The notes under the pieces are model-generated. The model had not been told where the DNA came from, did no database searches, and worked only from the letters and a program-made list of their open reading frames with translations. From a virus (Duplodnaviria; Heunggongvirae; Uroviricota; Caudoviricetes): a stretch of DNA of 64,000 nt. The stretch spans positions 55,152 to 119,151 of IMG/VR virus record IMGVR_UViG_3300047392_000113. The stretch is one strand, 5' to 3'. Made by a program: the position numbers and the translations under genes. Position 1 is the first letter of the stretch. Each line of letters opens with the position of its first letter. Shown piece after piece: positions 26,217-56,864 of this stretch.

Positions 26217-26384
26217 ATGTGGGATGACTTTAGTGACTACGAACTAGCCGAACTGGCTGGTCAGTATGGGTTGGAAGACAACCTAGTTTTTGATTATGAA
26301 CTTGGTCTTGCGAATCGTGATGAGATCGAGAAACTTTTGACAGAATTTGAATGGGAGATTGCAAATGCAGAATACAGCATCTGA
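26217..26384 (+). CDS. Small acidic protein (55 aa).
   Basis: ATG with GGAGAAAAT RBS. Overlaps the start of the following VWA gene by ~20 nt in another frame. Confidence 0.3.
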   Translation: MWDDFSDYELAELAGQYGLEDNLVFDYELGLANRDEIEKLLTEFEWEIANAEYSI

Positions 26385-28563
26385 TCTGAGCGCACGTTTG
26401 TTGGCCACAGAAAACCTTTCTGTTGTTCGTGCCAAAGCACCCACTGCATCCTTTAACATTAAGTCTCGTGTTTTGACTTTGCCTCTTTGGAAAGATATGA
26501 CTCCAGAGATCGAAGATATGCTTATCGGACACGAAGTTGGTCACGCATTGTGGACTGGCGAAGCATACTTGGAGCCGATTAAAGAAACACCCAAGTTGAT
26601 GACATATATGAACGTATTGGAAGACGTTCGTATCGAAAAGATGATGAAGCGTAAGTATCCTGGAATTCGTAAGCGTATGAATGAAGGTTACAAGCAACTC
26701 AATGAACGTGACTTCTTTGGTGTTAAGTCTATCCAAGACTTCAATGAGTTGCTATTGATTGACCGCATCAATCTGTATTTCAAAGTTGGTTTCGATTGTG
26801 GTGTTACATTCACGCCTGTAGAAAAAGCATTCGTGAATCGTGCAGAGCGCACTGAGACCATGGAAGAGATTGTTGCCTTGGCTCAGGAAATTTTCGCATA
26901 TTCTAAAGAACAAGCTGAGAAGCGTAAACAAGAGCGCATGGAATTGGGCTTGGACTCTGAAGAAGATGAAGACGAAGACGATGAACCGATGCAAGGTGAT
27001 TTTGATATCGATGATCTTGATGACTTTGATCTTGAAGAAGACGAAGACGCTGGCGATGATAAGAAAACATCCAAGGGTGGTTCAAGCAAAGAAAATCAAG
27101 ATGCTGCCAGTGACGATGTTAAGGATGAAGACTTAGAAGCCAAAACTGATAAGGTATTCCAACAACGTCTTGAGGAATTGGCTGACGATTCTACAGAGTA
27201 CTTGTACTGGAAATTCGATACAAAATACTATGAAGATCCAGTTGTTGGCTACAAGACTATTCTCAATGAGACTAAGTCTATCCACGATTGGAATGCTGAC
27301 TTGTATCAACAACAAGACTACAAGACTCGCTACATGGACGATGCCCAGCGTAGAGAATTCTTTGGCACTTTCACCCGAGAGTATGATCAATTCAAAACCG
27401 ATTCTATGCGCACGGTAAATTACCTTGTTAAAGAATTCGAGATGAAGAAGTCTGCACAAATTCTTAAACGTGCTCAGGTTTCCAAATCTGGTTCTCTGAG
27501 TATGGGTAAGGTTTGGGCTTACAAACTGCAAGATGATTTATTCAAGCGTGTGACTGTCTTACCACAAGGTAAGAATCACGGTATGGTTATGTTGCTGGAC
27601 TGGTCTGGTTCCATGGACGCTGTATTGCAAGACACATTGAAGCAGGTTATTAACCTTGCTATGTTCTGCCAACGAATCCAAGTGCCATATCGTGTGTATG
27701 CATTTTCAACTGATTACGAAAAAGATTTGTCTTATGACGAACGCAATCTTCGTCATCAAAAGATGCGTGACTTCTATTCATCTCTTGGTGATCGTACTAG
27801 TTTGTTGAGCAACACACGTGGTTTCCACTTGTTGGAATTCTTCAACGATAAGATGTCTTCATCCGAGTTTAATGAAATGTCTCGTCGTTTGTTGGATTAT
27901 CGTTTCCGTTGGAATGATGGTTACAGTACTTCTGGTACTCCATTGAACGAAGCATTGGCATGGTGCTATCTGAATCTTGGTGAGTTTATCAAGAGAAACA
28001 ATCTCGAGAAAACTACATTCATTACTCTTACTGATGGTGAAGGTGGTCAGCTGCATGGTGATGGTCGTCGTCTTGAGTCTGTTCGTAATGATTATATTGA
28101 CGGTAAATACACCCGCACTAAACTGCGCCATTTTATCCGTGATGACGTTACGAAGAAAACTTATGAGTTGAACAATCATTCTGCAACTCAGACTGAAACG
28201 ATTTTGCGAATGATCAAAGATCGCCACAATGTGAACACCGTAGGTTTCTATATCTGCCGTAATCATCGTCGTGATTTGCAGTCTGTCATTGGTGCAAACC
28301 TTCCAGGTTATACTGGCAGTACTGAAGTTTTGATTGAGAATTGGAGAAAACAATTCCGTGATCAATCCTTCGCTTCTGTCAAAAACACTGGGCGTGATGA
28401 GTTGTTCTTGATTCCTCAGTCTTCTACAAAGATTGAAGAAGGTGAACTTGATGTCAAGTCTGATGCAAAGGCTGCTAGCATTGCTCGCAACTTTAGCAAA
28501 TACCTGAACGTTAAGAAGACTTCTCGGGTGCTTTTGAATCGTTTCGTGGCTCTTGTAGCCTAA
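26365..28563 (+). CDS. cobT: CobT-like von Willebrand factor A (VWA) domain protein with an acidic linker and a predicted metallopeptidase-like HExxH (HEVGH) near the N-terminus.
   Basis: MIDAS motif LLDWSGSM in a VWA fold region. Long acidic stretch EEDEDEDDEP...DDLDDFDLEEDED. HEVGHALW motif near the N-terminus. Gene pairs with the following MoxR/CobS ATPase. Confidence 0.65.
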   Translation: MQNTASDLSARLLATENLSVVRAKAPTASFNIKSRVLTLPLWKDMTPEIEDMLIGHEVGHALWTGEAYLEPIKETPKLMTYMNVLEDVRIEKMMKRKYPGIRKRMNEGYKQLNERDFFGVKSIQDFNELLLIDRINLYFKVGFDCGVTFTPVEKAFVNRAERTETMEEIVALAQEIFAYSKEQAEKRKQERMELGLDSEEDEDEDDEPMQGDFDIDDLDDFDLEEDEDAGDDKKTSKGGSSKENQDAASDDVKDEDLEAKTDKVFQQRLEELADDSTEYLYWKFDTKYYEDPVVGYKTILNETKSIHDWNADLYQQQDYKTRYMDDAQRREFFGTFTREYDQFKTDSMRTVNYLVKEFEMKKSAQILKRAQVSKSGSLSMGKVWAYKLQDDLFKRVTVLPQGKNHGMVMLLDWSGSMDAVLQDTLKQVINLAMFCQRIQVPYRVYAFSTDYEKDLSYDERNLRHQKMRDFYSSLGDRTSLLSNTRGFHLLEFFNDKMSSSEFNEMSRRLLDYRFRWNDGYSTSGTPLNEALAWCYLNLGEFIKRNNLEKTTFITLTDGEGGQLHGDGRRLESVRNDYIDGKYTRTKLRHFIRDDVTKKTYELNNHSATQTETILRMIKDRHNVNTVGFYICRNHRRDLQSVIGANLPGYTGSTEVLIENWRKQFRDQSFASVKNTGRDELFLIPQSSTKIEEGELDVKSDAKAASIARNFSKYLNVKKTSRVLLNRFVALVA

Positions 28564-28694: not shown

Positions 28695-29867
28695 ATGGAG
28701 TTTGTGATGAGTAAAGTTGACGCTGTGGTTCGCCGTGAGTTTGAGATTAAACTTGCTGAGATGTTCCCCGATACCCAAACGTCTGGGCAGGTATCTCGCC
28801 CCCAACTTATTGAAGTTATGGGTGCTCTAAAGACAGAGAAGTTCCCTCTCTGGCTTATGAAAAATAAAGTTGGTCGTGGTATTTACGCTATTGATGGTGG
28901 TAAAACTACAACTGTTGTTGGTAATACCGCATTGAAAGATGAACCCGTGGAATCATACGTTGTTGACTACACAAATGTAGAATCACTTATCCCTCTTAAA
29001 GATCCAAACTTTGTTCCATTCGGTAACTACACTGATTTGGAAAACATTATCAAGTCTGGTATTTTCTATCCTGCATACATCTCTGGTCCAACTGGTAACG
29101 GTAAGTCCACGATGGTCGAACAAATTTGTGCCAAGCACAAGCGTCCACTGATTCGTGTTAACCTGAACATGATGACTGACGAAGAACAACTCATCGGTTC
29201 CAAAACTCTTCAGAATGGAAACGTAGAAGTTGTGGAAGGTCCAGTTCTTATCGCTATGCGCACTGGTACAACTCTGCTGCTTGACGAAATTGACGCTGGC
29301 TCTGCTAACACTCTGTTGTGTTTGCAACCAATTCTCGAAGGTAAACCCTACTACTTCAAGCTGAACAACGAGATGATTGTTCCTGCCAAGGGTTTCAATA
29401 TCTGCGCCACTGCTAACACAAAGGGTAAAGGCTCAGACGATGGTCGTTATATTGGTACTAACGTACTGAACGAAGCGTTCTTGGAGCGTTTCGCTGTAAC
29501 CTTTGAACAGGAATATCCTAGTGCTAAGGTTGAAGTTAAGATTGTTAAGAATCTTATGGAATCTTACGGTTGTGCAGACGAAGAATTTGCAGAGACTCTC
29601 GTTAAGTGGGCTGATGCAATTCGTCGCACATTCGAAGATGGTGGTGTCGATGAGACTATTACGACTCGTCGTATGATTCACATCGTACGTGCCTTTGCGA
29701 TTTTCCAGAATCGTGCTAAGGCAGTTGAGTTGTGTTGCAATCGTTTCGACTCGGCTACTAAGGATGCGTTCCTGAAGCTGTACGATAACATTGCAAACCC
29801 TGCTCCCGAAGCACCTCCTGTAGTGGAAGCACCGACTCCTCGTCCTTCGGATGAAGTTCCATTCTAA
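28695..29867 (+). CDS. cobS: CobS-like MoxR-family AAA+ ATPase.
   Basis: Walker A GPTGNGKST, Walker B LLLDEIDAG, overall similarity to aerobic cobaltochelatase CobS / phage CobS proteins. Probable start MSKVDAV at 28707. Confidence 0.85.
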   Translation: MEFVMSKVDAVVRREFEIKLAEMFPDTQTSGQVSRPQLIEVMGALKTEKFPLWLMKNKVGRGIYAIDGGKTTTVVGNTALKDEPVESYVVDYTNVESLIPLKDPNFVPFGNYTDLENIIKSGIFYPAYISGPTGNGKSTMVEQICAKHKRPLIRVNLNMMTDEEQLIGSKTLQNGNVEVVEGPVLIAMRTGTTLLLDEIDAGSANTLLCLQPILEGKPYYFKLNNEMIVPAKGFNICATANTKGKGSDDGRYIGTNVLNEAFLERFAVTFEQEYPSAKVEVKIVKNLMESYGCADEEFAETLVKWADAIRRTFEDGGVDETITTRRMIHIVRAFAIFQNRAKAVELCCNRFDSATKDAFLKLYDNIANPAPEAPPVVEAPTPRPSDEVPF

Positions 29868-31203: not shown

Positions 31204-31578
31204 ATGTTATTTGGTATCAATCCAATTATACATTCAGATCTTAAAGTTCAACTTGAGAATCTGAAAAAAGAAAACGAAAACCTAAAATATGCCAATGACG
31301 TATATCGTAAACGTCTTGAAGGTGAGATGGCTACTGCTTCAGTTGCTATTGACTGGAATGCAATGAAAGTTTTCTCAGTTGAGCGTATGTGGGAAAACGG
31401 ACTACCAAAAACAGTCCTTGGTTATATGTTATCAGAGCCAATGGTCACTACTTCTGGCGAAGGTGTTGAACGTGTAACTGAGAAAGAAATTGTTCGTGAG
31501 TGGACGTTATATTGTTCTGCAGAAAAGCATGAACAATTGGTCGTGGAATTTAATCAATATTTAATGGAGAAACAGTGA
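31204..31578 (+). CDS. Hypothetical protein with N-terminal coiled coil.
   Basis: 124-aa ORF coupled to neighbours. No motif. Confidence 0.35.
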   Translation: MLFGINPIIHSDLKVQLENLKKENENLKYANDVYRKRLEGEMATASVAIDWNAMKVFSVERMWENGLPKTVLGYMLSEPMVTTSGEGVERVTEKEIVREWTLYCSAEKHEQLVVEFNQYLMEKQ

Positions 31579-32450
31579 TGTTTATTTTTGGCGTAACCTT
31601 GCTCTTGGCGATTGCAGCTGCAATTTTTCTTTATGTTTTGCACGAAACTCGTGGTGGAACTACAACGTATCCATTCCGTAAACTTGTAGCACTACCTTTC
31701 ATTCTTCCAGTAGTTGTTCTGGTGTTTGAATCCTTTACTGTTGTTTCTGCTGGTCACGTTGGTGTTCAGGTTACAATGGGTACTGTGAATCCCGAAACTC
31801 TTTCTGAAGGTGTTCACTTGGTGAATCCTGTGTCACGTGTTCGTGATGTTGAAGTTCGAGTTGTAAAGGCAGACTTGAAGGGTGCTAGTGCTGGTACCAA
31901 AGACTTGCAAGTTGTACACACTGACCTAGTTGTTAACTACCGAATTGATGGTAGCAAAGCAGCACACATGTACAAAGAGTTTGGATTGGATCTAGAGAAT
32001 AAGATTCTTCTTCCTGCTGCAAACGAATCTTTCAAAGCAGTCACTGCACATTACAATTCTGAAGAACTTGTTATCAAACGTGATCAAGTCAGCAAGGGTA
32101 TTCACGATGAGTTACAAAACAAAGTCGGTAAGTATGGTTTGACTATTAGCGAAATCTCTTTGGTTAACTTTGGATTCTCTGCAGAGTACCAACAAGCCAT
32201 CGAACAAAAGGTTATTGCTACACAACAAAAGCAAAAAGCTGAACAAGACTTAGAGCGTATCAAAGTTGAAGCACAACAAGCAATTGCTCGTGCTGAGGGT
32301 AATGCAAAGGCTATTCAGATTCAAGCACAGGCTATCCAAAATCAAGGTGGTGCTGCTTATGTGCAACTTCGTGCAATTGAAAAGTGGGACGGTAAGCTAC
32401 CCCAATACAATGGCGGTGGTGCAGTTCCTTTCGTAAACTTGGGGAAATAA
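31575..32450 (+). CDS. SPFH/band-7 (prohibitin/HflK-like) membrane protein.
   Basis: N-terminal TM helix, then SAGHVGVQVTMG...VHTDLVVNYRI...IKRDQVS...LTISEISLVNFGFSAEYQQAIEQK plus a C-terminal coiled coil (QQKQKAEQDLERIKVEAQQAIARAEG) typical of the PHB domain. Confidence 0.7.
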   Translation: MMFIFGVTLLLAIAAAIFLYVLHETRGGTTTYPFRKLVALPFILPVVVLVFESFTVVSAGHVGVQVTMGTVNPETLSEGVHLVNPVSRVRDVEVRVVKADLKGASAGTKDLQVVHTDLVVNYRIDGSKAAHMYKEFGLDLENKILLPAANESFKAVTAHYNSEELVIKRDQVSKGIHDELQNKVGKYGLTISEISLVNFGFSAEYQQAIEQKVIATQQKQKAEQDLERIKVEAQQAIARAEGNAKAIQIQAQAIQNQGGAAYVQLRAIEKWDGKLPQYNGGGAVPFVNLGK

Positions 32451-36481: not shown

Positions 36482-36482
36482 A

Positions 36483-36705
36483 TAAATTTGCATCCCTCGG
36501 GATGGGAACCAGCATACCTGCGAAGGCTGGATAAATGTCCACAGGTGCCGAATTTAAGAACCCACCTTAGGGCACGTTAGTCGTCACGGTAACAGGCGTC
36601 CGAGCAATTGCACTGACACTCGTAGTTGTCGCTGGATAAAGTAACCAGCATGTTATGCCTTCGGGGTAACTACAATTTAATTAACTCGCTTAATAGGAGA
36701 AAACT
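36483..36705 (+). ncRNA. Candidate structured non-coding RNA / leader upstream of hsp20. GC-rich island with multiple tetraloop hairpins.
   Basis: Largest non-coding gap in the window. ~50% GC vs ~38% genome. Hairpins CATCCC-tc-GGGATG, CCAG..CCT-GCGA-AGG..CTGG (GNRA loop), GTGCC...GGCAC, CC-TTCG-GG (UUCG loop). Repeated AACCAGCAT. Confidence 0.35.
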
Positions 36706-37215
36706 ATGATTACTAAATCATTCGTACCCGCATTCTTTTCACAAGATGCATTCAAAGACATCGATAAACTATTTCTAGGATTCGATGACCAATTCAAGCA
36801 AATGCAACAACTGCATGATGACTTGACAAAAAACATTCCAAACTATCCTCCATTTAATGTCCGTAAGAACGGTAACACTTACACAATCGAATTAGCTGTT
36901 GCTGGTTTCGCACAAAACGAAATCGACATCACTATCGATGGTGGTAAGCTAATCGTCAAGGGCAACTCTGAGTCTACTGAACCAGAGGATAACTTTGTAT
37001 TCAAAGGTATCGCTAACCGTGCATTCACTCGTGCATGGGCTATCGGCGATACTTATGAAGTCAAAGATGCTGAGTTGTTCAACGGTATCTTGAAAATTGC
37101 GCTTGATAAGCTAGTTCCAGAAGAACAAAAAGCTAAGAAAGTTCCAGTAAAAACTAAAGGAAGCAAGCAATTTTTACAGGAGGATGGTTATGACAAAGCT
37201 GCTGAAAGCCTGTAA
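36706..37215 (+). CDS. Small heat-shock protein (Hsp20/alpha-crystallin family).
   Basis: Alpha-crystallin domain features (PPFNVRKNGNTYTIELAVAGF...IDITIDGGKLIVKG...GILKIAL). 169 aa. Confidence 0.8.
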   Translation: MITKSFVPAFFSQDAFKDIDKLFLGFDDQFKQMQQLHDDLTKNIPNYPPFNVRKNGNTYTIELAVAGFAQNEIDITIDGGKLIVKGNSESTEPEDNFVFKGIANRAFTRAWAIGDTYEVKDAELFNGILKIALDKLVPEEQKAKKVPVKTKGSKQFLQEDGYDKAAESL

Positions 37216-37518
37216 AGAAATCGTACTTGGAATTGCTGATGGCATTAATCAGTTTAAAACTTACAAGCAAGGTAAAGTAAAATGATGAACTTGCTCAAAA
37301 GACTGTCCAAGTTATTTGAGCAAAAATCCCAACTTGAGTTGTATATACTTTCTAAGAATCCACAATCTGCCGCAGATGTAGAGCACTGGTCTAGAAATTA
37401 TTCTCAAAGAAGGGGTTATACATTATGAACAACTGGATTCCAATGACTGATGACGACTGGGATTGGGTGAACGGTAAAGTTCCACCAAACCCAAATGATA
37501 AAACAAAGTGAGGAAATC

Positions 37519-37968
37519 ATGTCACTAACATTAAAAAATATTGAGAGTGCTTTAGCTGGTGAGTCTATGGCTCACATCAAGTATCGTTACTTCGCTAAGA
37601 TCGCACGTGAAGAAGGTTTCGAGGAAGTTGCTCAACACTTTGAGCATACAGCTGACCAAGAAATCAAGCACGCATGGGGTCATCTAGAATTGCTAATCGG
37701 CAAGCCATCCACTAAGGAATGCTTGGAGAAAGCGATCGAAGGTGAGACTTATGAGTATACAGAAATGTATCCGCAGTTTGAAAATACTGCAAAGGCAGAA
37801 CAAAACATTGAAGCTGTTAAAGAATTCAATGAGCAGGGTCGTGAATCAAACGAACACGCTCAACAATTCAAAGCAGTACTTGCAAAAGCAGAAAAGCGTT
37901 TCGCAGCTTTGAAGAAAGTTGAAGAGCGCCATGCTAATGCATACAAACAAGTTTTGGGAGGTCTATAA
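37519..37968 (+). CDS. Rubrerythrin-like ferritin-type diiron domain protein (lacks the fused rubredoxin-like domain).
   Basis: Paired diiron motifs E..H: ALAGESMAHIKYRYFAKIAREEGFEEVAQHFEHTADQEIKHAWGH and a second EGETYEYTEMYPQF...E half. Immediately followed by a separate rubredoxin gene. Confidence 0.75.
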   Translation: MSLTLKNIESALAGESMAHIKYRYFAKIAREEGFEEVAQHFEHTADQEIKHAWGHLELLIGKPSTKECLEKAIEGETYEYTEMYPQFENTAKAEQNIEAVKEFNEQGRESNEHAQQFKAVLAKAEKRFAALKKVEERHANAYKQVLGGL

Positions 37969-38096
37969 TGGAACACGTATGTGTAGTTTGTGGTCACATC
38001 CACGATGAGGAAACTGAAGGTAAGTGGGAAGATCTTCCAGCTGACTTTCTCTGTCCAGAGTGTGGTGTAGGTAAAGACGAATACGAAAGTATTTAA
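37968..38096 (+). CDS. Rubredoxin (42 aa).
   Basis: MEHVCVVCGHIHDEE...W.DLP.DF.CPECGVGKDEYE has both CxxCG and CPxCG knuckles and the conserved W. TAATG coupling to the rubrerythrin gene. Not in the ORF track because it is under 60 aa. Confidence 0.8.
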   Translation: MEHVCVVCGHIHDEETEGKWEDLPADFLCPECGVGKDEYESI

Positions 38097-38140
38097 TCGT
38101 CATACAATTTTAGGGGTCTTAGGATCCCTAAATAATTTGT

Positions 38141-42567: not shown

Positions 42568-45057
42568 ATGGAATTTTATACAAGCGTTCACCCCATGGGA
42601 GACAAGATGTTGGTTCGTGGGTATGATAAGGGGCGAGCATATCAGCGTAAGGTGGATTTCTACCCTACGCTGTATGTCACTTCTAAGAAAGAATCTTCTA
42701 AGTGGCGCACACTTGAAGGCACTATTGTTGATGAAGTAAAACCTGGAACCATCAAAGAGACTCGTGACTTTGTTAAACGTTACGAAGGTGTGCAGGGTTT
42801 TGATGTTTATGGTAATACAAACTACTCATACCAATACATCAGTGATATGTATCCCGATGACATCAAATGGGATATGGAAATGTTCAAGGTATTCACCATT
42901 GACATTGAGACATCTACAGAAGGTGGCTTCCCAGATATTCGCTCAGCCAACGAAGAAATTCTTCTGATCACAGTTAAGGATCTACAATCAAAGCGTATCA
43001 TTACGTTTGGCTGCAAGACCTTTGTACACAATCGTGAAGATCTAATTTATGTCCATGCAAACGATGAACGTCATCTGTTGCAGGAGTTTTTGGCATTTTG
43101 GGAAAAGAGTTATCCCGATGCCGTGACTGGTTGGAACACAGACTTCTTCGATATGCCATATCTGATTCGGCGTATTTCTCGTGAACTTGGTGACAAAGAA
43201 GCCGAGCGTATTAGCCCATGGCGTTATATCAACGAACGTAAAACCTTTATCAAAGGTAACGAAGAGCTTCATTACGATATTCTTGGTATTAGTCAGCTGG
43301 ACTATTTGGAACTCTACAAGAAGTACACCTATCAAAAACAAGAGTCTTATCGTCTTGACTACATTGCCGAGCAAGAACTTGGCGACAAGAAGAAAGAAAA
43401 CCCTGGAGAGTCTTTCAAAGACTTTTATACTGACCACTGGCAACAATTCGTAGAGTATAACATCCACGACGTAGAGTTGGTTGACAAGCTAGAAGATAAG
43501 ATGCGTTTGATTGAACTGCATCTGACTATGGCTTACAATGCCAAGATCAATCCTGAAGATGTTTACTCACAGGTTCGTATGTGGGATACGATCATCTATA
43601 ACCACTTACGCAAAAAGGGTATTGTTATCCCACAGAAGACTCACAGTGGCAAAGATGCGCAGTTTGAAGGTGCTTATGTAAAAGATCCAATCATCGGTGG
43701 TCACAAATGGGTTGCCTCGTTTGACTTGAACAGTCTGTATCCTCACTTGATTATGCAGTATAACATCAGTCCAGAAACTCTAACATCTGATAAACTAAGT
43801 GTTACTGTTGACAAGTTGTTGAACAAAGAAGTGGATACCTCACATTGCCACAAACGTGACTTGGCTCTAACTGCAAATGGTTGGTGTTATCGAAAAGACA
43901 TCAAAGGGTTTATGCCTGAGTTGATGGAAGAGATGTATAAAAACCGTTCCAAGTTTAAAAAGCAGATGTTGAAGATCGAACAGGAATATCAAAACGACAA
44001 GAGCAAGAAGCACTTGCTGAAAGATATCTCTCGTCTCAATAACTTGCAGATGGCTATGAAAATTGCCCTAAACTCTGCTTATGGTGCGATGGGTAATCAA
44101 TACTTCCGTTACTTTGATATTCGTATGGCTGAAGGTATTACCACTTCTGGTCAGTTGTCAATCCGTTGGATGGCTAACAAGTTGAATGCGTTTATGAACA
44201 AAACGCTAAAGACCGAAGGTGATGATTTCGTTATTGCGATTGACACAGACTCAATCTATCTTTCTCTCGAGAAGTTAGTAGAGACTGTTGCTGGTGATAA
44301 AGATACAACTGGTAAGATCAAGTTTATGGACAAGATCTGTGATGATGTATTCCAACCTTTCATTGACTCTGGTTACACTGAACTGTCTCAATATATGAAT
44401 GCTTATAGCCAGAAGATGGTTATGAAACGTGAGGTTCTTGCTGACAAAGGTATCTGGACAGCCAAGAAGCGTTACATTCTTCGAGTGCATAACTCTGAGG
44501 GTGTTCAGTTTGCCAAACCTAAGATCAAGGTGATGGGATTGGAGATGGTTAAGTCTTCAACTCCAGCTGTCATTCGTGATAAGTTGCACCAGTCTATTGA
44601 TGTTATTCTGGAAGGCGACGAAAAAGTACTACATAAGTATGTGTCTGACTTCAGAGAAAAGTTTGTTGAGTTGCCAGTTCAAGATATAGCATTCCCTCGT
44701 AGTTGTAATGGTGTAAAGCAGTATGCTGGTTCACCTATTTACCAAAAGGGAACACCGATTCAAGTGCGTGGTGCTCTGCTCTACAATCACTATTGTAAAC
44801 GTCATGGGCTTGATAGAAAGTATCAGGCTATCCGTGATGGTGATAAGATCAAGTTTGTGTATCTGCGAACACCGAATCCAATTCACGAGAACGTGATTGC
44901 ATTCCCTCAAGAGATGCCAAAGGAACTTGGACTTCACGACTACATAGATTACGACTTACAATTCGAAAAGGTTTTTCTTGATGCGCTTCAGATTGTTATT
45001 CAGCCACTGGGCTGGAAGACGCAAGAAGAATCTTCGTTGGAGGATTTCTTTGGATAA
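42568..45057 (+). CDS. gp43: Family B DNA polymerase gp43.
   Basis: MEFYTS (T4 MKEFYIS). Exo motifs FDIETS and YNIHDVEL. Pol motifs FDLNSLYPHLIMQYNISPETL, NSAYGAMGNQYFRYFDIRMAEGITTSGQ, IAIDTDSIY, KKRYIL and KIKVMGLEMVKSSTP. C-terminus EESSLEDFFG. Confidence 0.95.
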   Translation: MEFYTSVHPMGDKMLVRGYDKGRAYQRKVDFYPTLYVTSKKESSKWRTLEGTIVDEVKPGTIKETRDFVKRYEGVQGFDVYGNTNYSYQYISDMYPDDIKWDMEMFKVFTIDIETSTEGGFPDIRSANEEILLITVKDLQSKRIITFGCKTFVHNREDLIYVHANDERHLLQEFLAFWEKSYPDAVTGWNTDFFDMPYLIRRISRELGDKEAERISPWRYINERKTFIKGNEELHYDILGISQLDYLELYKKYTYQKQESYRLDYIAEQELGDKKKENPGESFKDFYTDHWQQFVEYNIHDVELVDKLEDKMRLIELHLTMAYNAKINPEDVYSQVRMWDTIIYNHLRKKGIVIPQKTHSGKDAQFEGAYVKDPIIGGHKWVASFDLNSLYPHLIMQYNISPETLTSDKLSVTVDKLLNKEVDTSHCHKRDLALTANGWCYRKDIKGFMPELMEEMYKNRSKFKKQMLKIEQEYQNDKSKKHLLKDISRLNNLQMAMKIALNSAYGAMGNQYFRYFDIRMAEGITTSGQLSIRWMANKLNAFMNKTLKTEGDDFVIAIDTDSIYLSLEKLVETVAGDKDTTGKIKFMDKICDDVFQPFIDSGYTELSQYMNAYSQKMVMKREVLADKGIWTAKKRYILRVHNSEGVQFAKPKIKVMGLEMVKSSTPAVIRDKLHQSIDVILEGDEKVLHKYVSDFREKFVELPVQDIAFPRSCNGVKQYAGSPIYQKGTPIQVRGALLYNHYCKRHGLDRKYQAIRDGDKIKFVYLRTPNPIHENVIAFPQEMPKELGLHDYIDYDLQFEKVFLDALQIVIQPLGWKTQEESSLEDFFG

Positions 45058-45598
45058 TATCCGAATCATTAAAACTGGAATCAATGTGTCAAAGATTTTG
45101 GCACAATTGAATGCACACCCAGAAGACTGGGGAAGTCAACTCAACGTGGCTGGAGTTAAGTCACTGCTTGATCGTGGATTTCCTCAGGTAGAAGCTGGTG
45201 TGCTTCAACTTGTTATGGGTGGTATAGAATCTATAGATCAGTACGTTGGAGATACAGAGATTTGTATTCCAACTCCTGCGATTGAAAGACATACTGAAGT
45301 TGTTCGATTCCTCAAACGCAACTTTAAGAAGTTCAGTCGTTGTGGTTTCCTTTCACTGCCAGTTGGTGGAGAAGTTGGAAAGCATATCGACATTGGCAGT
45401 TACTACCAAACTCGAGATCGTTATCATCTGTCCATCCAAGGCAGATACATATACACTGTAGGAGATGAATCTGTTACAGTGGAACCTGGAACCCTGTTGT
45501 GGTTCAATAATAAATTACCCCATGGGACTAAAAATGTTGGTGATTGCGTTCGTGTTACATTCGTTTTCGATGTACCACATTCCAAGAACAATCCATAA
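44981..45598 (+). CDS. 2OG-Fe(II) oxygenase / cupin-like protein. Start uncertain: an ATG at 44981 overlaps the polymerase 3' end by 77 nt, and alternatives are GTG ~45094 or ATG ~45216.
   Basis: HxD...H facial triad candidates (VGKHIDIG ... LPHGTKNV) and a C-terminal RVTFVFD strand. Confidence 0.45.
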   Translation: MRFRLLFSHWAGRRKKNLRWRISLDNIRIIKTGINVSKILAQLNAHPEDWGSQLNVAGVKSLLDRGFPQVEAGVLQLVMGGIESIDQYVGDTEICIPTPAIERHTEVVRFLKRNFKKFSRCGFLSLPVGGEVGKHIDIGSYYQTRDRYHLSIQGRYIYTVGDESVTVEPGTLLWFNNKLPHGTKNVGDCVRVTFVFDVPHSKNNP

Positions 45599-45628: not shown

Positions 45629-45880
45629 ATGAAACTATACAAATTTTACGCTGAGTGGTGCGCACCTTGCAAGATGTTGAGTAAGGTTATTGATGATGCT
45701 AAGGACAAGATTAATGTTGACATTGTCGAGTTCGATATTGATGCAGAAATGATGACTGCTATTAACTATGGAGTTCGCAGCGTACCTACGATGGTTCTTG
45801 TTGACGAGAACGATAAAGAAATCAAGCGTTTAAATGGATATGCCAACGAAGAAAAACTTCTAGACTTTTTGAAAGTTTAA
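45629..45880 (+). CDS. Thioredoxin.
   Basis: WCAPC active site (thioredoxin WCGPC variant). 83 aa. SVPTMVL cis-Pro loop. Confidence 0.8.
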   Translation: MKLYKFYAEWCAPCKMLSKVIDDAKDKINVDIVEFDIDAEMMTAINYGVRSVPTMVLVDENDKEIKRLNGYANEEKLLDFLKV

Positions 45881-47842: not shown

Positions 47843-49205
47843 ACTAATTTATGATGAACACTATTGCCGAAAAGTAATTCCCTTTATTAAAAAAGAATAT
47901 TTTGGCGATAAGAAAGAATCCATCGTAGCTACGATTGTATCAGAATTTTTCAGTAAGTATAACAAACCTCTAACGAAAGAAATCCTTTCGATTGAAATTG
48001 GTAATAGAAAAGACCTCAATGACAAAGAGTTAGCTGATGTTAACTCTTATGTTAATGAGTTAACTGACGCTCCAGTCAATGAAGACTGGATGATGGAAAA
48101 CACTGAAAAGTTTTGTAAGGATCGTGCAGTTTACAATTCAATCCTAAAGTCTATTCAGATTATTGATGGGCGTGAGAAGACTTTAACCCAAGATGCTATT
48201 CCTTCTATTCTTTCTGAAGCACTAGCAGTTTCTTTCGACAGTCATATTGGTCACGATTATTTGGGTGACCACGAATCTCGTTATGAATTTTATCACCGAG
48301 TTGAAGAGAAGATTGCCTTTGACTTGGAGATGTTTAACAAGATTACAAAGGGTGGTCTTTCTAAGAAAACTTTGAACATCGCACTGGCTGGTACTGGTGT
48401 TGGTAAGTCTTTGTTTATGTGTCACGTTGCCTCTGGTTGTTTAACACAGGGTAAAAACGTATTATACATAACAATGGAAATGGCAGAAGAGCGTATCGCT
48501 GAACGTATTGACGCCAATCTTTTGAATCTGACGATGGACGAACTAAAGGTTATCGATAAAGATATCTACGAAAGTCGTATCAATAAGATTACAAAGAAGA
48601 CTAAAGGCAGATTGATCATTAAAGAATACCCAACTGCTGGTGCGCACTCAGGTCATTTCCGTGCATTGTTAGAAGAATTAAAACTCAAACTAGAGTTTAT
48701 GCCAGACATTATCTTCATCGACTACTTGAACATCTGTGCAAGTCAGCGTATGAAGCAAGGGGCAAATGTTAATTCTTATACATATGTTAAGGCAATTGCA
48801 GAAGAGTTGCGTGGTTTGGCAGTCGAGTTTAATGTTCCAATCGTCTCAGCTACCCAAACCACCCGATCTGGATTTAGCAGTTCAGATCCAGGACTCGAGG
48901 ATACCTCAGAATCTTTCGGTTTACCTGCGACAGCCGACTTTATGTTTGCGTTGGTTAGTAATGAAGAACTAGAAGCACTGAATCAAATTATTGTTAAGCA
49001 GTTGAAAAACCGATACAATGATCCTAGTTATTTTAAAAGATTTGTTATTGGCATTGATAGGTCAAAGATGAAGTTATATGATGTAGAGGCTTCTGCTCAA
49101 GTAGGCTTAGCAGATTCTGGTCAAGATACTGGTCCAGTTTTTGACAAGGGAGACTTTGGTAAGAGAATGAAGTCTGAGGGTAGTTTTGACGGTTGGAAGT
49201 TTTAA
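47814..49205 (+). CDS. gp41: Replicative DNA helicase gp41 (DnaB family).
   Basis: IEQQILSRLIYDEHY (T4 VEIILSHLIFDQAY), Walker A LAGTGVGKS, ITMEMAEE, RIDAN, GLPATADFMFALV. All colinear with T4 gp41. Confidence 0.9.
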   Translation: MRIEQQILSRLIYDEHYCRKVIPFIKKEYFGDKKESIVATIVSEFFSKYNKPLTKEILSIEIGNRKDLNDKELADVNSYVNELTDAPVNEDWMMENTEKFCKDRAVYNSILKSIQIIDGREKTLTQDAIPSILSEALAVSFDSHIGHDYLGDHESRYEFYHRVEEKIAFDLEMFNKITKGGLSKKTLNIALAGTGVGKSLFMCHVASGCLTQGKNVLYITMEMAEERIAERIDANLLNLTMDELKVIDKDIYESRINKITKKTKGRLIIKEYPTAGAHSGHFRALLEELKLKLEFMPDIIFIDYLNICASQRMKQGANVNSYTYVKAIAEELRGLAVEFNVPIVSATQTTRSGFSSSDPGLEDTSESFGLPATADFMFALVSNEELEALNQIIVKQLKNRYNDPSYFKRFVIGIDRSKMKLYDVEASAQVGLADSGQDTGPVFDKGDFGKRMKSEGSFDGWKF

Positions 49206-49215
49206 GGAGAAAGAA

Positions 49216-55638: not shown

Positions 55639-56418
55639 ATGAAAGATTACAAACAATTCCTAAGAGAATTGCCGTCCAAAACTGTCGTTTTAGCGTGCGG
55701 GAGATTTAATCCTCCTACATTAGCCCATGAAATGATAGTGAAGACTGTCAAGAAACTGGCTGAGTCGAAAGGCGCTGACCACGTAGTCTATGCATCCAAT
55801 GTAAGCGATGCGAAAAAGAATCCTCTATTAGTAGAAAAGAAACTTCAGTACCTAGAACTGGTATTCCCTAAGACCAACTTTGTTGAGAGTGGGGATAACG
55901 TCGGTGAGGTTATTAAGAAGCTGAAGGAAAGTTATAAGAATATCATCGTTGTCACTAGCGCTGACAAGGTTCAATCATTGAAGAAATATATGGTTGAAAC
56001 TGTATCCATTGTTGACAAGGATCCAGACAGTGAAGACTCTGTTAGAAGTCTGGCATCAAAGGGTTTATACGAAGAGTTTAAGAAGAATCTTCCTACTTCT
56101 ATTCGTGAACTTGATAGTCGTCGCTTGATGAATGATATGCGTATTGGTTCTGGATTGGAACCGATCAAAGAACAGATTAACTTGGTAAAAGATAGTCTCA
56201 GAGAACAGTATTTTAGAGGTGAGATCTTCAATATAGGAGATCTTGTTGAAAACTGTGGCGTTGAATATCAGATTGTTAAACGTGGTTCAAATCACTTGCT
56301 TTTGAAAGACGAATCAGGTAAACTTGTATCTAAGTGGATTCAAGAAGTTACACAAAAAGATATTAGATCAGATGAACCTTTCTTTAAGGAATCGTTCAAA
56401 GAGTGGAGAAAGAAATAA
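55639..56418 (+). CDS. HIGH-motif nucleotidyltransferase-fold protein (paralog A) with T4-like capsid targeting sequence at the N-terminus.
   Basis: N-terminus MKDYKQFLRE matches T4 IP capsid-targeting sequence MKTYQEFIAE. ACGRFNPPTLAHEMIV is a (T/H)xGH nucleotidyltransferase motif. Paralogous to the 59030 ORF. Confidence 0.5.
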   Translation: MKDYKQFLRELPSKTVVLACGRFNPPTLAHEMIVKTVKKLAESKGADHVVYASNVSDAKKNPLLVEKKLQYLELVFPKTNFVESGDNVGEVIKKLKESYKNIIVVTSADKVQSLKKYMVETVSIVDKDPDSEDSVRSLASKGLYEEFKKNLPTSIRELDSRRLMNDMRIGSGLEPIKEQINLVKDSLREQYFRGEIFNIGDLVENCGVEYQIVKRGSNHLLLKDESGKLVSKWIQEVTQKDIRSDEPFFKESFKEWRKK

Positions 56419-56864
56419 TGGACGAGTTAAGAACAAGAATTAAAATTTTACTTGCCAATGCTACAGTTATGTACTATAAGGCACATCAGTTCCATTGGAA
56501 CCTTGAAGGCATCGAATTCACTCAGTACCATGAATTCTTTGGGGATATTTACACTGATGTGTATGCTTCAGTAGACCCAATTGCAGAATTGCTACGTAAG
56601 CTAGATGATTACGCTCCAGTTAGTATTGACGAATTGTACAAATTTAAAACACTTGAAGAAGAAACTACTCGTGTTGTTCTTCTAAAAGATATCCTTGTCA
56701 GTTTAATCAAAGCAAATGACGAAGTTCTTTCTAATTTGAATAAAGTGTTTGAAGTTGCGAATGCAAACAAACAACAAGGTGTGTGTAACTTTATCGCAGA
56801 TAGAATAGATACTCACCAAAAACATGGTTGGTTCCTAAAGGCATCAGCCAAAAAGGTAGGATAA
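56418..56864 (+). CDS. Dps-like ferritin (DNA-binding protein from starved cells family).
   Basis: LLANATVMYYKAHQFHWNLEGIEFTQYHEFFGDIYTDVYASVDPIAELLRKLDDYAP matches the Dps ferroxidase-site helix pair (H..HWN...F...HE..). Confidence 0.75.
   Translation: MDELRTRIKILLANATVMYYKAHQFHWNLEGIEFTQYHEFFGDIYTDVYASVDPIAELLRKLDDYAPVSIDELYKFKTLEEETTRVVLLKDILVSLIKANDEVLSNLNKVFEVANANKQQGVCNFIADRIDTHQKHGWFLKASAKKVG

What the first reader, a model, noticed from the sequence alone, without database searches (positions are those of the whole stretch)
36706..38096. Oxidative/iron-stress gene set: split rubrerythrin plus separate rubredoxin, next to Hsp20 (with Dps and thioredoxin elsewhere in the window).
- The ferritin-like diiron domain of rubrerythrin (37519-37968) lacks its usual C-terminal rubredoxin-like domain.
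- Instead a 42-aa canonical rubredoxin (CxxCG...CPxCG) is encoded from a TAATG overlap immediately downstream, as if the fusion had been split.
- The window also carries Hsp20 (36706), a Dps-like ferritin (56418), thioredoxin (45629), a secreted His-rich peptide and a His-rich packaged protein.
- This is an unusually large peroxide/iron-handling repertoire for a phage.
- It hints at a host living under micro-oxic or iron-fluctuating conditions.
- The rubredoxin gene is absent from the ORF track because it is under 60 aa.
Basis: seen in the sequence. Interest (0 to 1): 0.55.

Follow-up and report, generated by a model that had tools for sequence, protein, structure and literature searches.

The report
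Phage rubrerythrin–rubredoxin peroxide-defence gene pair
An uncultured T4-like phage carries a tightly coupled two-gene module (a di-iron rubrerythrin-type protein plus a miniature rubredoxin) that it shares with hundreds of related phages and that derives from a bacterial three-gene peroxide-detoxifying operon, so it is a real but fairly ordinary "borrowed host gene" case rather than a phage-made gene split.

Summary
Window 37519-37968 encodes a 149-aa rubrerythrin-family di-iron protein with no rubredoxin domain. Window 37968-38096 encodes a 42-aa CxxCG...CPxCG rubredoxin that starts in a TAATG overlap. Hsp20, a Dps-like ferritin and a thioredoxin are also present.

The "split fusion" reading is only partly right. 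The di-iron protein belongs to the "cyanobacterial-type" (group 5) rubrerythrins. Its closest cellular relatives (57-68% identity) are Beta/Gammaproteobacteria such as Polynucleobacter, Limnohabitans and Gallionella. In these the gene is already followed by a separate 54-56-aa rubredoxin, and usually by a rubredoxin reductase and a divergent LysR regulator. Only the more distant cyanobacterial relatives are fused.

The phage copy keeps the first two genes of that operon. The spacer is reduced to a 1-4 nt overlap and the rubredoxin is 9-12 residues shorter. No reductase was found.

The pair occurs in 155 of 159 viral loci examined, with none fused, and is under purifying selection (dN/dS 0.10 and 0.15).

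Most likely function: a peroxide reductase fed by a host reductase. This is a new member of a known kind, of moderate interest.

Side finding: a conserved structured RNA lies upstream of hsp20.

The parts
37519..37968 (+). One-domain rubrerythrin ('erythrin', 149 aa) of the group 5 / 'cyanobacterial-type' family, proteobacterial clade. Candidate di-iron ligands are E15, E48, H51, E76, E79, plus either E109/H113 or E135/H138.
   Evidence: - Family match: Pfam PF02915 2.3e-17. The best solved relatives are sulerythrin (1.7e-20), B. pseudomallei and P. furiosus rubrerythrins.
- Fold: AF2 model with pLDDT 95.4 and four helices. Foldseek TM 0.77-0.82 to rubrerythrin structures.
- Family signature: a 25-aa insertion carrying ESxEH and a C-terminal ExxH helix, shared with group 5.
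- Conservation: the ligand residues are invariant in 79 phage sequences and dN/dS is 0.10.
37956..37961 (+). Shine-Dalgarno-like GGGAGG for the rubredoxin gene, embedded in the last codons of the rubrerythrin gene, 6 nt before the ATG.
   Evidence: Read directly from the sequence. A GGAGG/GAGG-type motif is kept at this position in most related loci (junction sequences).
37968..38096 (+). Miniature rubredoxin (42 aa), CVVCG...CPECG. Its start codon overlaps the rubrerythrin stop codon (TAATG).
   Evidence: - Family match: Pfam PF00301 1.1e-9. The best solved relative is P. aeruginosa rubredoxin 2, 2v3b_B, at 3.8e-11, with a 9-residue loop gap.
- Conservation: present directly downstream in 155 of 159 viral loci, with junctions of -1, -4 or +1 nt in the closest 79. 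C5, C8, C29, C32, H10, P30, G33, K36 and Y39 are invariant in those 79, and dN/dS is 0.15.
- Size: 9-12 residues shorter than the rubredoxin of the bacterial operon.
38109..38132 (+). Terminator-like hairpin (10-bp stem) immediately after the rubredoxin gene.
   Evidence: Consensus scan. No terminator-like site was found on the + strand between hsp20 and this point.
36706..37215 (+). Hsp20 / alpha-crystallin small heat-shock protein. It lies upstream on the same strand and is loosely linked to the pair.
   Evidence: PF00011 2.2e-16 and PHROG 432 5e-38. It is within 1 kb upstream of the rubrerythrin gene in 40 of 80 related loci, and elsewhere or absent in the rest. It is common in T4-like cyanophages and pelagiphages (403 records).
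37184..37510 (+). Three small overlapping ORFs (33, 48 and about 28 aa) filling the space between hsp20 and the rubrerythrin gene. Function unknown.
   Evidence: ORF list and sequence. There are no Pfam or PHROG matches for the 48-aa ORF. JGI gene calls at the same place are 31 and 48 aa.
56403..56864 (+). Dps/ferritin-like protein, elsewhere in the window and not linked to the pair.
   Evidence: PF00210 3.8e-20. NCBIfam DpsA models match below their cut-offs. Only 9 phage records hold a relative.
45629..45880 (+). Thioredoxin (83 aa, WCAPC motif), elsewhere in the window.
   Evidence: PF00085 4.2e-18. Sequence.

Best explanation
**What it is.** The two genes are a phage-borne auxiliary module derived from the bacterial rbr-rub-rubB operon: one-domain rubrerythrin, rubredoxin and NAD(P)H:rubredoxin reductase, usually next to a divergent LysR-type regulator. 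This operon is found in Beta/Gammaproteobacteria.

**How it got here.** An ancestor of a large clade of uncultured T4-like myoviruses took up the first two genes. The clade has since kept them under purifying selection. The intergenic spacer shrank to a 1-4 nt stop/start overlap, with the Shine-Dalgarno sequence inside the upstream gene, which implies translational coupling and roughly equimolar synthesis. The rubredoxin shrank from about 54 to 42-46 residues.

**How it most likely works.** During infection a host flavoprotein reduces the phage rubredoxin with NAD(P)H. The candidate is the host's own rubredoxin reductase, or ferredoxin:NADP reductase as for the characterised relatives RbrA and ferriperoxin. 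The rubredoxin then passes single electrons to the di-iron site of the phage rubrerythrin, which reduces H2O2 (and possibly organic hydroperoxides) to water. This would limit Fenton damage to replicating DNA and to iron enzymes.

**Shown versus inferred.**
- Shown here: homology, fold, conservation of metal-binding residues, gene order, origin and selection.
- Inferred: peroxidase activity, the identity of the reductase, and the benefit to the phage.
For: - **Family and fold.**
- **Group 5 signature.** The insertion and C-terminal ExxH helix are shared with cyanobacterial RbrA orthologues. RbrA is reported to be a strong NADPH peroxidase that depends on FNR (Zhao et al. 2007, as summarised in PMC6616624). 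The one-domain relative ferriperoxin is an FNR-dependent peroxidase (PMC3317640).
- **Closest cellular relatives.** They are Beta/Gammaproteobacteria at 57-68% identity.
  - A separate rubredoxin lies directly downstream in 42 of 42 loci.
  - A reductase with Pyr_redox_2 and the rubredoxin-binding domain PF18113 follows in 36 of 42. Three of the six misses are contig ends.
  - A LysR regulator is adjacent in 26 of 42, and a Fe/Mn superoxide dismutase lies nearby in Polynucleobacter.
- **Rubredoxin origin.** The phage rubredoxin is closer to these operon rubredoxins (E 1e-8 to 1e-12) than to the cyanobacterial fused domain (E 1e-2 to 1e-4).
- **Single origin.** The phage rubrerythrins are monophyletic in 50 of 50 neighbour-joining bootstraps.
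- **Conservation of the pair.** It is present in 155 of 159 viral loci. dN/dS is 0.10 and 0.15, and the Cys and ligand residues are invariant in the 79 closest phage sequences.
- **Age of the acquisition.** GC content of the two genes (0.41-0.43) matches the window (0.40), consistent with an old acquisition.
Against: - No biochemical or expression data exist for any phage copy.
- No reductase gene was found in the window or within about 5 kb in 80 related loci. The electron source is therefore assumed, and the rest of the phage genome was not available.
- The helix-D ligand pair is ambiguous.
  - The AF2 model, Foldseek and HMMER place Ser110/His113, preceded by an invariant Glu109, at the canonical ExxH position.
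  - BLASTP and MAFFT instead align the canonical motif with E135xxH138, beyond a 25-residue insertion.
- In RbrA the review states that FNR reduces the di-iron centre without the rubredoxin domain. The role of rubredoxin in this subfamily is therefore not settled.
- The function of sulerythrin, the best solved match, is itself not firmly established.
- The phage rubredoxin replaces two conserved aromatic residues with His (CGHxH) and lacks a loop. Its redox partner specificity may have changed.
Confidence: 0.68

Rival explanations
1. One reading: a fused rubrerythrin (di-iron domain plus C-terminal rubredoxin domain) was split into two genes in the phage lineage.
For: Fused relatives of this same subfamily exist in cyanobacteria (229-233 aa; P0154 and P0201). 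The phage genes abut with a 1-4 nt overlap, which is what a recent split by a stop mutation could look like.
Against: - The nearest relatives (57-68% identity) are already split in 42 of 42 proteobacterial loci, with spacers of 12-107 nt and three overlaps of 4 nt. The fused forms are only 40-44% identical.
- No fused copy occurs among 159 viral loci.
- The two phage ORFs are in different reading frames.
- The phage rubredoxin resembles the operon rubredoxins more than the fused domain.
- Cardenas et al. 2016 infer that the one-domain form is ancestral for the group.
Confidence: 0.04
2. The di-iron protein does not act mainly as a peroxidase. It acts as an O2-reducing oxidase, or as a ferroxidase or iron-buffering protein working with the Dps-like protein. 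This would lower free Fe(II) and O2 around phage iron enzymes, with rubredoxin serving as reductant or for iron release.
For: - The ferritin-like fold matches weakly to Pfam Ferritin (3e-05).
- The best solved match, sulerythrin, is studied for O2 and H2O2 activation at its di-metal site (PDB titles).
- The window also encodes a Dps-like protein and several Fe(II)/2-oxoglutarate-type oxygenases.
Against: - The characterised members nearest in family, RbrA and ferriperoxin, are peroxidases.
- The bacterial operon context (LysR regulator, rubredoxin reductase, nearby superoxide dismutase) fits peroxide defence.
- The Dps-like gene is 18 kb away, and its linkage to the pair was not examined.
Confidence: 0.15
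3. The rubredoxin is the important component. It shuttles electrons to some other phage or host enzyme (for example an oxygenase or desaturase), and the rubrerythrin is a co-inherited passenger.
For: Free rubredoxins of this type serve alkane hydroxylases and flavorubredoxin systems; the best solved hit is the P. aeruginosa Rd2-reductase complex. The window encodes Tet/JBP-type and Asp/Arg-hydroxylase-type oxygenases.
Against: - The rubrerythrin gene is at least as constrained as the rubredoxin (dN/dS 0.10 against 0.15).
- The two are translationally coupled in nearly all loci.
- Three viral loci keep the rubrerythrin without a detectable rubredoxin. The reverse case could not be seen, because both viral scans selected loci by the rubrerythrin gene.
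- By general enzymology (my own knowledge), 2-oxoglutarate oxygenases do not need a rubredoxin.
Confidence: 0.08
4. The pair is a non-functional hitch-hiker or an assembly or binning artefact of bacterial DNA in a viral contig.
For: The genes are clearly of bacterial origin.
Against: - The pair sits between phage genes: clamp loader, RegA and Hsp20 upstream, DNA ligase and DNA polymerase downstream.
- It recurs in hundreds of viral contigs.
- The phage copies are monophyletic and under purifying selection.
- GC content equals the phage background.
Confidence: 0.02

Closest known systems
Proteobacterial rbr-rub-rubB operon (one-domain group 5 rubrerythrin + rubredoxin + NAD(P)H:rubredoxin reductase, with a divergent LysR regulator), e.g. 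in Polynucleobacter, Limnohabitans, Gallionella, Aromatoleum
   Same: - Same rubrerythrin subfamily, at 57-68% identity.
- Same insertion and C-terminal ExxH helix.
- Same gene order, rubrerythrin then rubredoxin, as separate genes.
   Different: - The phage lacks the reductase and the regulator.
- The spacer is reduced to an overlap in the phage.
- The rubredoxin is 42-46 aa instead of 54-56 aa, with CG(F/Y)xY changed to CGHxH, W changed to F, and F changed to Y.
- I found no experimental study of this bacterial operon in the paper library. Its function is itself inferred.
Anabaena/Nostoc RbrA (Alr1174), 'cyanobacterial-type' rubrerythrin
   Same: - Same group 5 family, with ESxEH plus a C-terminal ExxH.
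- Reported NADPH peroxidase that needs a separate flavoprotein, FNR.
   Different: [quoted passage not shown]
- It is only 40-44% identical to the phage protein.
- It is a cellular, heterocyst-specific protein.
Sulerythrin (Sulfolobus tokodaii) and ferriperoxin (Hydrogenobacter thermophilus): 'aerobic-type' one-domain rubrerythrins
   Same: One-domain four-helix-bundle di-iron proteins without a rubredoxin domain. Sulerythrin is the best solved-structure match. Ferriperoxin is an FNR-dependent peroxidase.
   Different: - They belong to a different subfamily (group 4 of Cardenas et al.).
- That subfamily lacks the 25-aa insertion and the C-terminal helix.
- It is typically linked to DUF3501 and an Fe-S oxidoreductase, not to rubredoxin.
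Pelagibacter phage Mosig EXVC030M 'putative rubrerythrin' (the only cultured-phage relative found)
   Same: A T4-like (Kyanoviridae) phage that carries a one-domain rubrerythrin.
   Different: - It is only 42% identical and of the sulerythrin-like type, without the insertion.
- No rubredoxin gene is annotated next to it, and tblastn found none in the 8.4-kb locus.
- It probably represents an independent acquisition.
Short natural rubredoxins (Desulfovibrio desulfuricans 45-aa rubredoxin, PDB 6rxn) and P. aeruginosa rubredoxin 2 with its reductase (2v3b)
   Same: The CxxCG...CPxCG Fe(Cys)4 motifs are present, and 6rxn is likewise a short rubredoxin (45-46 aa); that its missing residues lie in the same loop is my own knowledge. 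The best sequence match is Rd2, the partner of a reductase homologous to the one in the bacterial operon.
   Different: At 42 aa the phage protein is shorter than these. It carries phage-specific His substitutions next to the first Cys knuckle.

Membership tests
Rubrerythrin family (Pfam PF02915, ferritin-like di-iron four-helix bundle) | Sequence match above the curated family threshold | tested here: met
   64.1 bits against a 22.8-bit cut-off, E 2.3e-17.
Rubrerythrin family (Pfam PF02915, ferritin-like di-iron four-helix bundle) | Four-helix-bundle fold like solved rubrerythrins | tested here: met
   AF2 pLDDT 95.4 with helices 3-31, 35-60, 65-93 and 97-148. Foldseek TM 0.77-0.82 and rmsd 0.9-1.8 A to P. 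furiosus and C. difficile rubrerythrins and sulerythrin.
Rubrerythrin family (Pfam PF02915, ferritin-like di-iron four-helix bundle) | Seven di-iron ligands: E (helix A), ExxH (B), ExxE (C), ExxH (D) | tested here: inconclusive
   E15, E48/H51 and E76/E79 are canonical and invariant. For helix D the position-equivalent residues are S110/H113, preceded by an invariant E109. A perfect E135xxH138 lies in the C-terminal extension. Which set binds iron cannot be decided without a structure. The same ambiguity holds for the whole group 5 family, including RbrA orthologues.
Rubrerythrin family (Pfam PF02915, ferritin-like di-iron four-helix bundle) | NAD(P)H-linked peroxidase activity | not testable with these tools
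   Needs an enzyme assay. It is known only for the relatives RbrA and ferriperoxin.
Classical rubrerythrin (NCBIfam NF045767 equivalog; di-iron domain fused to a short-spaced C-terminal rubredoxin-like domain) | C-terminal CxxC-(10-14 residues)-CxxC domain in the same polypeptide | tested here: not met
   The protein ends at residue 149 with no cysteine pair. NCBIfam scores 71.7 bits against a 200-bit cut-off.
Group 5 'cyanobacterial-type' rubrerythrins, proteobacterial one-domain clade (Cardenas et al. 2016) | Closest similarity to group 5 members; shared about 25-aa insertion (ESxEH) and C-terminal ExxH helix; no fused rubredoxin in the proteobacterial clade | tested here: met
   Alignments A1 and A2. 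57-68% identity to proteobacterial members and 40-44% to cyanobacterial fused members. In the tree the phage clade is sister to the proteobacterial clade.
Rubredoxin (Pfam PF00301) | Two CxxCG / CPxCG knuckles; family score above threshold | tested here: met
   C5VVCG and C29PECG are present. 38.6 bits against a 23-bit cut-off. The four Cys are invariant in 79 phage copies.
Rubredoxin (Pfam PF00301) | Canonical length of about 52-56 aa with the loop between the knuckles (27-32 residues between Cys pairs) and the aromatic core (Y11, Y13, W37, F49 in clostridial numbering, from my own knowledge) | tested here: not met
   The protein is 42 aa with 20 residues between C8 and C29. It has a 9-residue deletion relative to operon rubredoxins and substitutions Y/F to H10, Y to H12, W to F27 and F to Y39. 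NCBIfam RubredRD scores 38.2 bits against a 90-bit cut-off.
Rubredoxin (Pfam PF00301) | Binds one Fe in an Fe(Cys)4 centre and is redox active | not testable with these tools
   Needs spectroscopy of the purified protein.
Three-component rubredoxin-dependent peroxidase operon (rbr-rub-rubB) | A dedicated NAD(P)H:rubredoxin reductase encoded with the pair | tested here: not met
   tblastn with the Polynucleobacter reductase finds nothing in the window or in the first 80 viral loci plus the Mosig locus. No flavoprotein reductase is among 10 further mid-size window ORFs. The rest of the phage genome was not available.
Phage auxiliary metabolic gene (host-derived, phage-maintained) | Embedded among phage genes, cellular homologues exist, maintained by selection in a phage lineage | tested here: met
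   Flanked by clamp loader, RegA and Hsp20 upstream and by DNA ligase and DNA polymerase downstream. 538 viral contigs carry a relative. The phage copies are monophyletic and dN/dS is 0.10-0.15.

The most novel reading that the evidence does not exclude
The phage clade has re-engineered a host peroxide-defence operon into a minimal, host-plug-in module.

- A 42-aa rubredoxin, shorter than any characterised natural one that I know of, carries phage-specific His residues beside the iron site. It may have been selected to accept electrons from several host flavoproteins, so that the module works without its own reductase.
- The module, together with the Dps-like protein, may specifically shield the phage's Fe(II)/2-oxoglutarate DNA-hypermodification enzymes (Tet/JBP and the amino acid:DNA transferase) and replicating DNA from Fenton chemistry. 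This would matter in freshwater hosts with weak peroxide defences.
- A second untested novelty concerns the doubled helix-D motif (ESxEH plus ExxH on one 52-residue helix). It may mean that the di-iron site of group 5 rubrerythrins is completed in trans across a dimer.
Probability: 0.2. Interest if true: 0.6.

Novelty: new member of a known kind. Interest (0 to 1): 0.38.

Why it matters
- **Scale.** If the module is active, a very abundant group of uncultured T4-like phages carries its own peroxide-scavenging enzyme and electron carrier. Relatives were found in 538 IMG/VR contigs and in thousands of metagenomic proteins. This would add oxidative-stress relief to the list of functions that phages import from hosts.
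- **Host lead.** The origin of the pair points to Beta/Gammaproteobacteria, with Polynucleobacter- or Limnohabitans-like plankton as candidates, for a phage clade that has no cultured member.
- **Tractable system.** It offers a small natural system (149 aa plus 42 aa) for studying rubredoxin-to-di-iron electron transfer and the minimal size of a rubredoxin.
- **Limits.** It does not overturn any concept. One-domain rubrerythrins, their pairing with separate redox partners and phage-borne rubrerythrin genes are all on record.

Tried and rejected
- **DNA search against deposited phages.** A megablast of the region found nothing. The phage has no close cultured relative; its DNA polymerase is at most 55% identical to cyanophage polymerases.
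- **PHROGs.** It gave no useful family for the rubrerythrin (one 0.0075 hit) and none for the rubredoxin.
- **'Aerobic-type' (sulerythrin-like) rubrerythrin.** I first filed the protein there because sulerythrin is the best solved match. I rejected this once the alignment showed the group 5 insertion and C-terminal helix and the genome scan showed the relatives.
- **Fused viral versions.** I searched with a cyanobacterial fused protein and with a profile of fused proteins. All 76 new pairs were split. The apparent full-length matches in the table were joined hits in two reading frames.
- **RNA and promoter scans.**
  - Rfam at gathering thresholds and at E<=1, and a tRNA scan of the window, found nothing relevant.
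  - The T4 late-promoter motif TATAAATA is not enriched and is absent near the genes. Expression timing could therefore not be inferred.
- **First tree script.** It timed out and was rerun in lighter form.
- **Literature.** Searches for phage rubrerythrin plus rubredoxin found only survey-level mentions of phage rubrerythrin and no description of this pair. The library is incomplete, so this is not proof of novelty.
Full report
**Observation**

The window is part of an uncultured T4-like myovirus.
- It encodes a T4-type portal, major head protein, tail sheath, DNA ligase, RegA and a DNA polymerase (PHROG matches).
- The polymerase is at most 55% identical to those of Synechococcus phages.
- A megablast of the region finds nothing in 50,697 phage records.
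- The exact rubrerythrin protein is on JGI metagenome contigs of up to 170 kb; the locus read is from a 99-kb contig, and there a 42-aa gene with PF00301 is called directly after it.

At 37519-37968 (+) lies a 149-aa protein that matches Pfam Rubrerythrin (E 2.3e-17) and has no cysteine pair. At 37968-38096 (+) lies a 42-aa protein with CVVCG...CPECG that matches Pfam Rubredoxin (E 1.1e-9). Its ATG shares a base with the TAA of the upstream gene, and a GGGAGG lies 6 nt upstream inside that gene.

Hsp20 (36706-37215), a Dps/ferritin-like protein (56403-56864) and a thioredoxin (45629-45880) are confirmed.

**Is the small ORF real?**

A scan of IMG/VR found 538 viral contigs that encode a close relative of the di-iron protein.
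- In the best 80 loci, 79 have a rubredoxin ORF directly downstream. The remaining locus ends at the contig edge.
- For one of those 79 loci the contig ends inside the rubredoxin ORF. Counting the window itself, this leaves 79 complete pairs, with stop/start junctions of -1 nt (43), -4 nt (34) or +1 nt (2). The rubredoxin is 42-46 aa.
- A second scan reached more divergent viral copies (58-77% identity). It gave 76 more split pairs, 3 loci without a detectable rubredoxin, and no fusion.
- In the 79 aligned pairs all four cysteines are invariant, as are H10, L23, P30, E31, G33, K36 and Y39.
- Median pairwise dN/dS is 0.15 for the rubredoxin and 0.10 for the di-iron protein.

**What kind of rubrerythrin is it?**

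The best solved relatives by sequence are sulerythrin (E 1.7e-20), B. pseudomallei rubrerythrin and P. furiosus rubrerythrin.
- An AlphaFold2 model is confident (pLDDT 95.4). It has helices 3-31, 35-60 and 65-93, and one long helix 97-148.
- It superposes on P. furiosus, C. difficile and B. pseudomallei rubrerythrins and on sulerythrin with TM 0.77-0.82.

Alignment with representatives from a 1.8-billion-protein library shows that the phage protein shares two features with a particular subfamily. One is an insertion of about 25 residues containing an invariant E-S-x-E-H. The other is a C-terminal helix with K-R-F-x-x-L-x-x-V-E-E-R-H-A-x-x-Y.

This subfamily is the "cyanobacterial-type" group 5 of Cardenas et al. 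2016 (PMC5114695). It has a cyanobacterial clade fused to a long-spaced rubredoxin domain and a proteobacterial clade without it. Pelagibacter phage Mosig is the only cultured phage with a relative (42% identity). Its protein is the other, sulerythrin-like type, and no rubredoxin gene is annotated next to it or found by tblastn in the 8.4-kb locus.

**Origin**

A scan of one genome per prokaryotic species found the closest cellular relatives at 57-68% identity. They are in Beta/Gammaproteobacteria: Polynucleobacter, Limnohabitans, Rhodoferax, Gallionella, Sideroxydans, Aromatoleum, Zoogloea, Thiobacillus and others. Cyanobacteria follow at 40-44%.

In all 42 proteobacterial loci the di-iron gene (151-163 aa) is followed by a separate rubredoxin gene. 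This rubredoxin is 54-56 aa in most loci. The spacer is 12-107 nt, with three overlaps of 4 nt. In the cyanobacteria the two are one ORF of 229-233 aa.

In Polynucleobacter the next gene is a 394-aa flavoprotein with Pyr_redox_2 plus the rubredoxin-binding C-terminal domain PF18113, that is, a rubredoxin reductase. A LysR-type regulator is divergently transcribed upstream, and a Fe/Mn superoxide dismutase lies nearby.
- The reductase follows the pair in 36 of 42 loci. Three of the six misses are contig ends.
- The LysR gene is adjacent in 26 of 42.
- No reductase homologue is found in the window or in 80 phage loci, and none among ten further mid-size window ORFs.

The phage di-iron proteins are monophyletic in 50 of 50 neighbour-joining bootstraps. 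They sit next to the proteobacterial clade without a resolved donor genus. The phage rubredoxin is more similar to the operon rubredoxins (E 1e-8 to 1e-12) than to the fused cyanobacterial domain (E 1e-2 to 1e-4). The GC content of the two genes equals the phage background.

The simplest history is a single old capture of the first two genes of a proteobacterial rbr-rub-rubB operon, followed by compaction.

**What changed in the phage**

The spacer was eliminated, and the ribosome-binding site now lies in the last codons of the upstream gene.

The rubredoxin lost 9 residues of the loop between the two cysteine knuckles, and 11-12 in one sub-clade. It also changed CG(F/Y)xY to CGHxH, W to F, and F to Y.
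- It still scores as a free-type rubredoxin: PF00301 38.6 bits against 23.7 bits for the rubrerythrin-type domain PF21349.
- Its best solved match is P. aeruginosa rubredoxin 2 from the rubredoxin-reductase complex 2v3b.
- At 42 aa it is shorter than the 45-aa Desulfovibrio protein found in the same search.
- Both phage proteins fall below the NCBIfam equivalog cut-offs. They are divergent family members, not orthologues of the textbook proteins.

**Di-iron ligands**

E15, E48/H51 and E76/E79 align with the canonical ligands and are invariant. Helix D is ambiguous.
- HMMER, Foldseek and the model put S110...H113, preceded by an invariant E109, where ExxH sits in solved rubrerythrins.
- BLASTP and MAFFT against a classical rubrerythrin open a 25-residue gap and align E135-E-R-H138 with the classical I-E-E-R-H.

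The two segments resemble each other (EHAQQFKAVL and RHANAYKQVL), which suggests an internal duplication on one 52-residue helix. The same pair of motifs is present in Anabaena and Synechococcus orthologues of RbrA. RbrA is reported to be an active peroxidase. I therefore treat the site as complete, with an unresolved assignment. This is a property of the family, not of the phage.

**Mechanism proposed**

NAD(P)H passes electrons to a host flavoprotein, either the rubredoxin reductase of the homologous host operon or FNR. These go to the phage rubredoxin, then to the phage di-iron centre, which reduces H2O2 to water.

Support from relatives:
- RbrA has strong NADPH peroxidase activity that needs FNR (Zhao et al. 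2007, as summarised in PMC6616624).
- The one-domain ferriperoxin is an FNR-dependent peroxidase for H2O2 and organic hydroperoxides (PMC3317640).
- The bacterial operon context is that of peroxide defence.

Caveats:
- No phage copy has been assayed.
- The review states that FNR reduces RbrA's di-iron centre without its rubredoxin domain.
- The reductase is assumed to come from the host.

Rival roles (oxidase or ferroxidase; rubredoxin serving another enzyme) cannot be excluded but fit the context less well.

**Gene neighbourhood**

hsp20, three small ORFs, the rubrerythrin gene and the rubredoxin gene lie on one strand without a terminator-like site between them. A 10-bp hairpin follows the rubredoxin gene at 38109-38132. 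The link to hsp20 is loose: hsp20 is within 1 kb upstream in 40 of 80 loci. Hsp20 itself is routine in this kind of phage (403 records). Rubrerythrin, rubredoxin and Dps relatives are rare in deposited phage genomes (8, 7 and 9 records).

**Comparison and novelty**

One-domain rubrerythrins, their dependence on separate redox partners, and phage-borne rubrerythrin genes are all on record. Examples of the last are the Mosig annotation and AMG surveys.

I found no description of three things in the paper library, which is incomplete:
- the conserved rubrerythrin-rubredoxin pair in a large clade of T4-like phages;
- its derivation from the proteobacterial three-gene operon;
- the miniaturised rubredoxin.

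I rate it a new member of a known kind (a host-derived auxiliary gene module). It has moderate interest and gives a useful host lead.

**Side observation**

The 224-nt gap upstream of hsp20 contains an element of about 145 nt (36557-36700). It is conserved at 70-85% nucleotide identity directly upstream of hsp20 in more than 35 related loci.
- It has invariant blocks and three hairpins supported by compensatory changes: 9 of 17 predicted pairs.
- The last hairpin has a UUCG loop followed by a U-rich tract.
- An invariant AACUCGCUU lies just before the ribosome-binding site.
- It has no Rfam match.

It may be a new regulatory leader or small RNA and deserves its own look.

Noticed in passing
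window 36557-36700 (+), within the non-coding gap 36482-36705 upstream of hsp20: A conserved, apparently structured non-coding element.
- It shows 70-85% nucleotide identity directly upstream of the hsp20 homologue in more than 35 related phage loci.
- It has invariant blocks: ACCUUAGG, GGCGUCC, CCUUCGGGG and AACUCGCUU.
- RNAalifold predicts 17 pairs, 9 with compensatory changes. They include a CUGG/CCAG stem that flips to CCAG/CUGG or CCUG/CAGG, and a terminator-like UUCG hairpin followed by a U-rich tract about 30 nt before the Shine-Dalgarno sequence.
- It has no Rfam match at gathering thresholds or at E<=1.
- The single-sequence fold z-score is only -1.35.
- It may be a new hsp20 leader, thermosensor or small RNA.
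   Followed up: partly
window 49186-50550 and 52436-53506 (+): A Tet/JBP-type 2-oxoglutarate/Fe(II) dioxygenase (PF12851, 1.4e-23) and an amino acid:DNA transferase (PF18724, 5e-22). Together these suggest that the phage hypermodifies its DNA bases. A cupin / Asp-Arg-hydroxylase-like protein lies at 44978-45598. These iron- and oxygen-dependent enzymes could be what a peroxide scavenger protects, but that link is speculation.
   Followed up: no
proteins P0121-P0125, P0129-P0134 (not in the window): The highest-scoring representatives in the 1.8-billion-protein library are very long proteins (651-1957 aa) with 3-8 tandem rubrerythrin-like domains at 32-42% identity. Their origin and meaning are unknown.
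   Followed up: no
window 37614-37694 (rubrerythrin residues about 96-122) and 37895-37968 (residues about 126-149): The di-iron protein carries two similar helix-D-like motifs on one predicted 52-residue helix: ESNEHAQQFKAVL and EERHANAYKQVL. This looks like an internal duplication shared by all group 5 rubrerythrins, including cyanobacterial RbrA orthologues. Which motif ligates iron is unresolved.
   Followed up: partly
window 56866-58038 and 59030-59641 (+): Two histidine-rich ORFs (9.7% and 12.3% His) flank the Dps-like gene region. I did not test secretion, packaging or metal binding.
   Followed up: no
window 28695-29867 and 26347-28563 (+): A CbbQ/NorQ-type AAA ATPase (PF07728 and PF08406) lies next to a 738-aa protein that matches the PHROG 'peptidase' family and, weakly, a PHROG family annotated as 'cobalamin biosynthesis protein'. 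From my own knowledge this resembles the CobS/CobT-like pair common in T4-like marine phages. There is also an SPFH/Band 7 protein at 31575-32450.
   Followed up: no
L190, L192, L230 (viral loci): Three divergent viral relatives keep the one-domain rubrerythrin, but no rubredoxin is detectable within 400 nt downstream although about 2.5 kb of sequence follows. This is either loss of the rubredoxin or a copy too divergent for tblastn.
   Followed up: no
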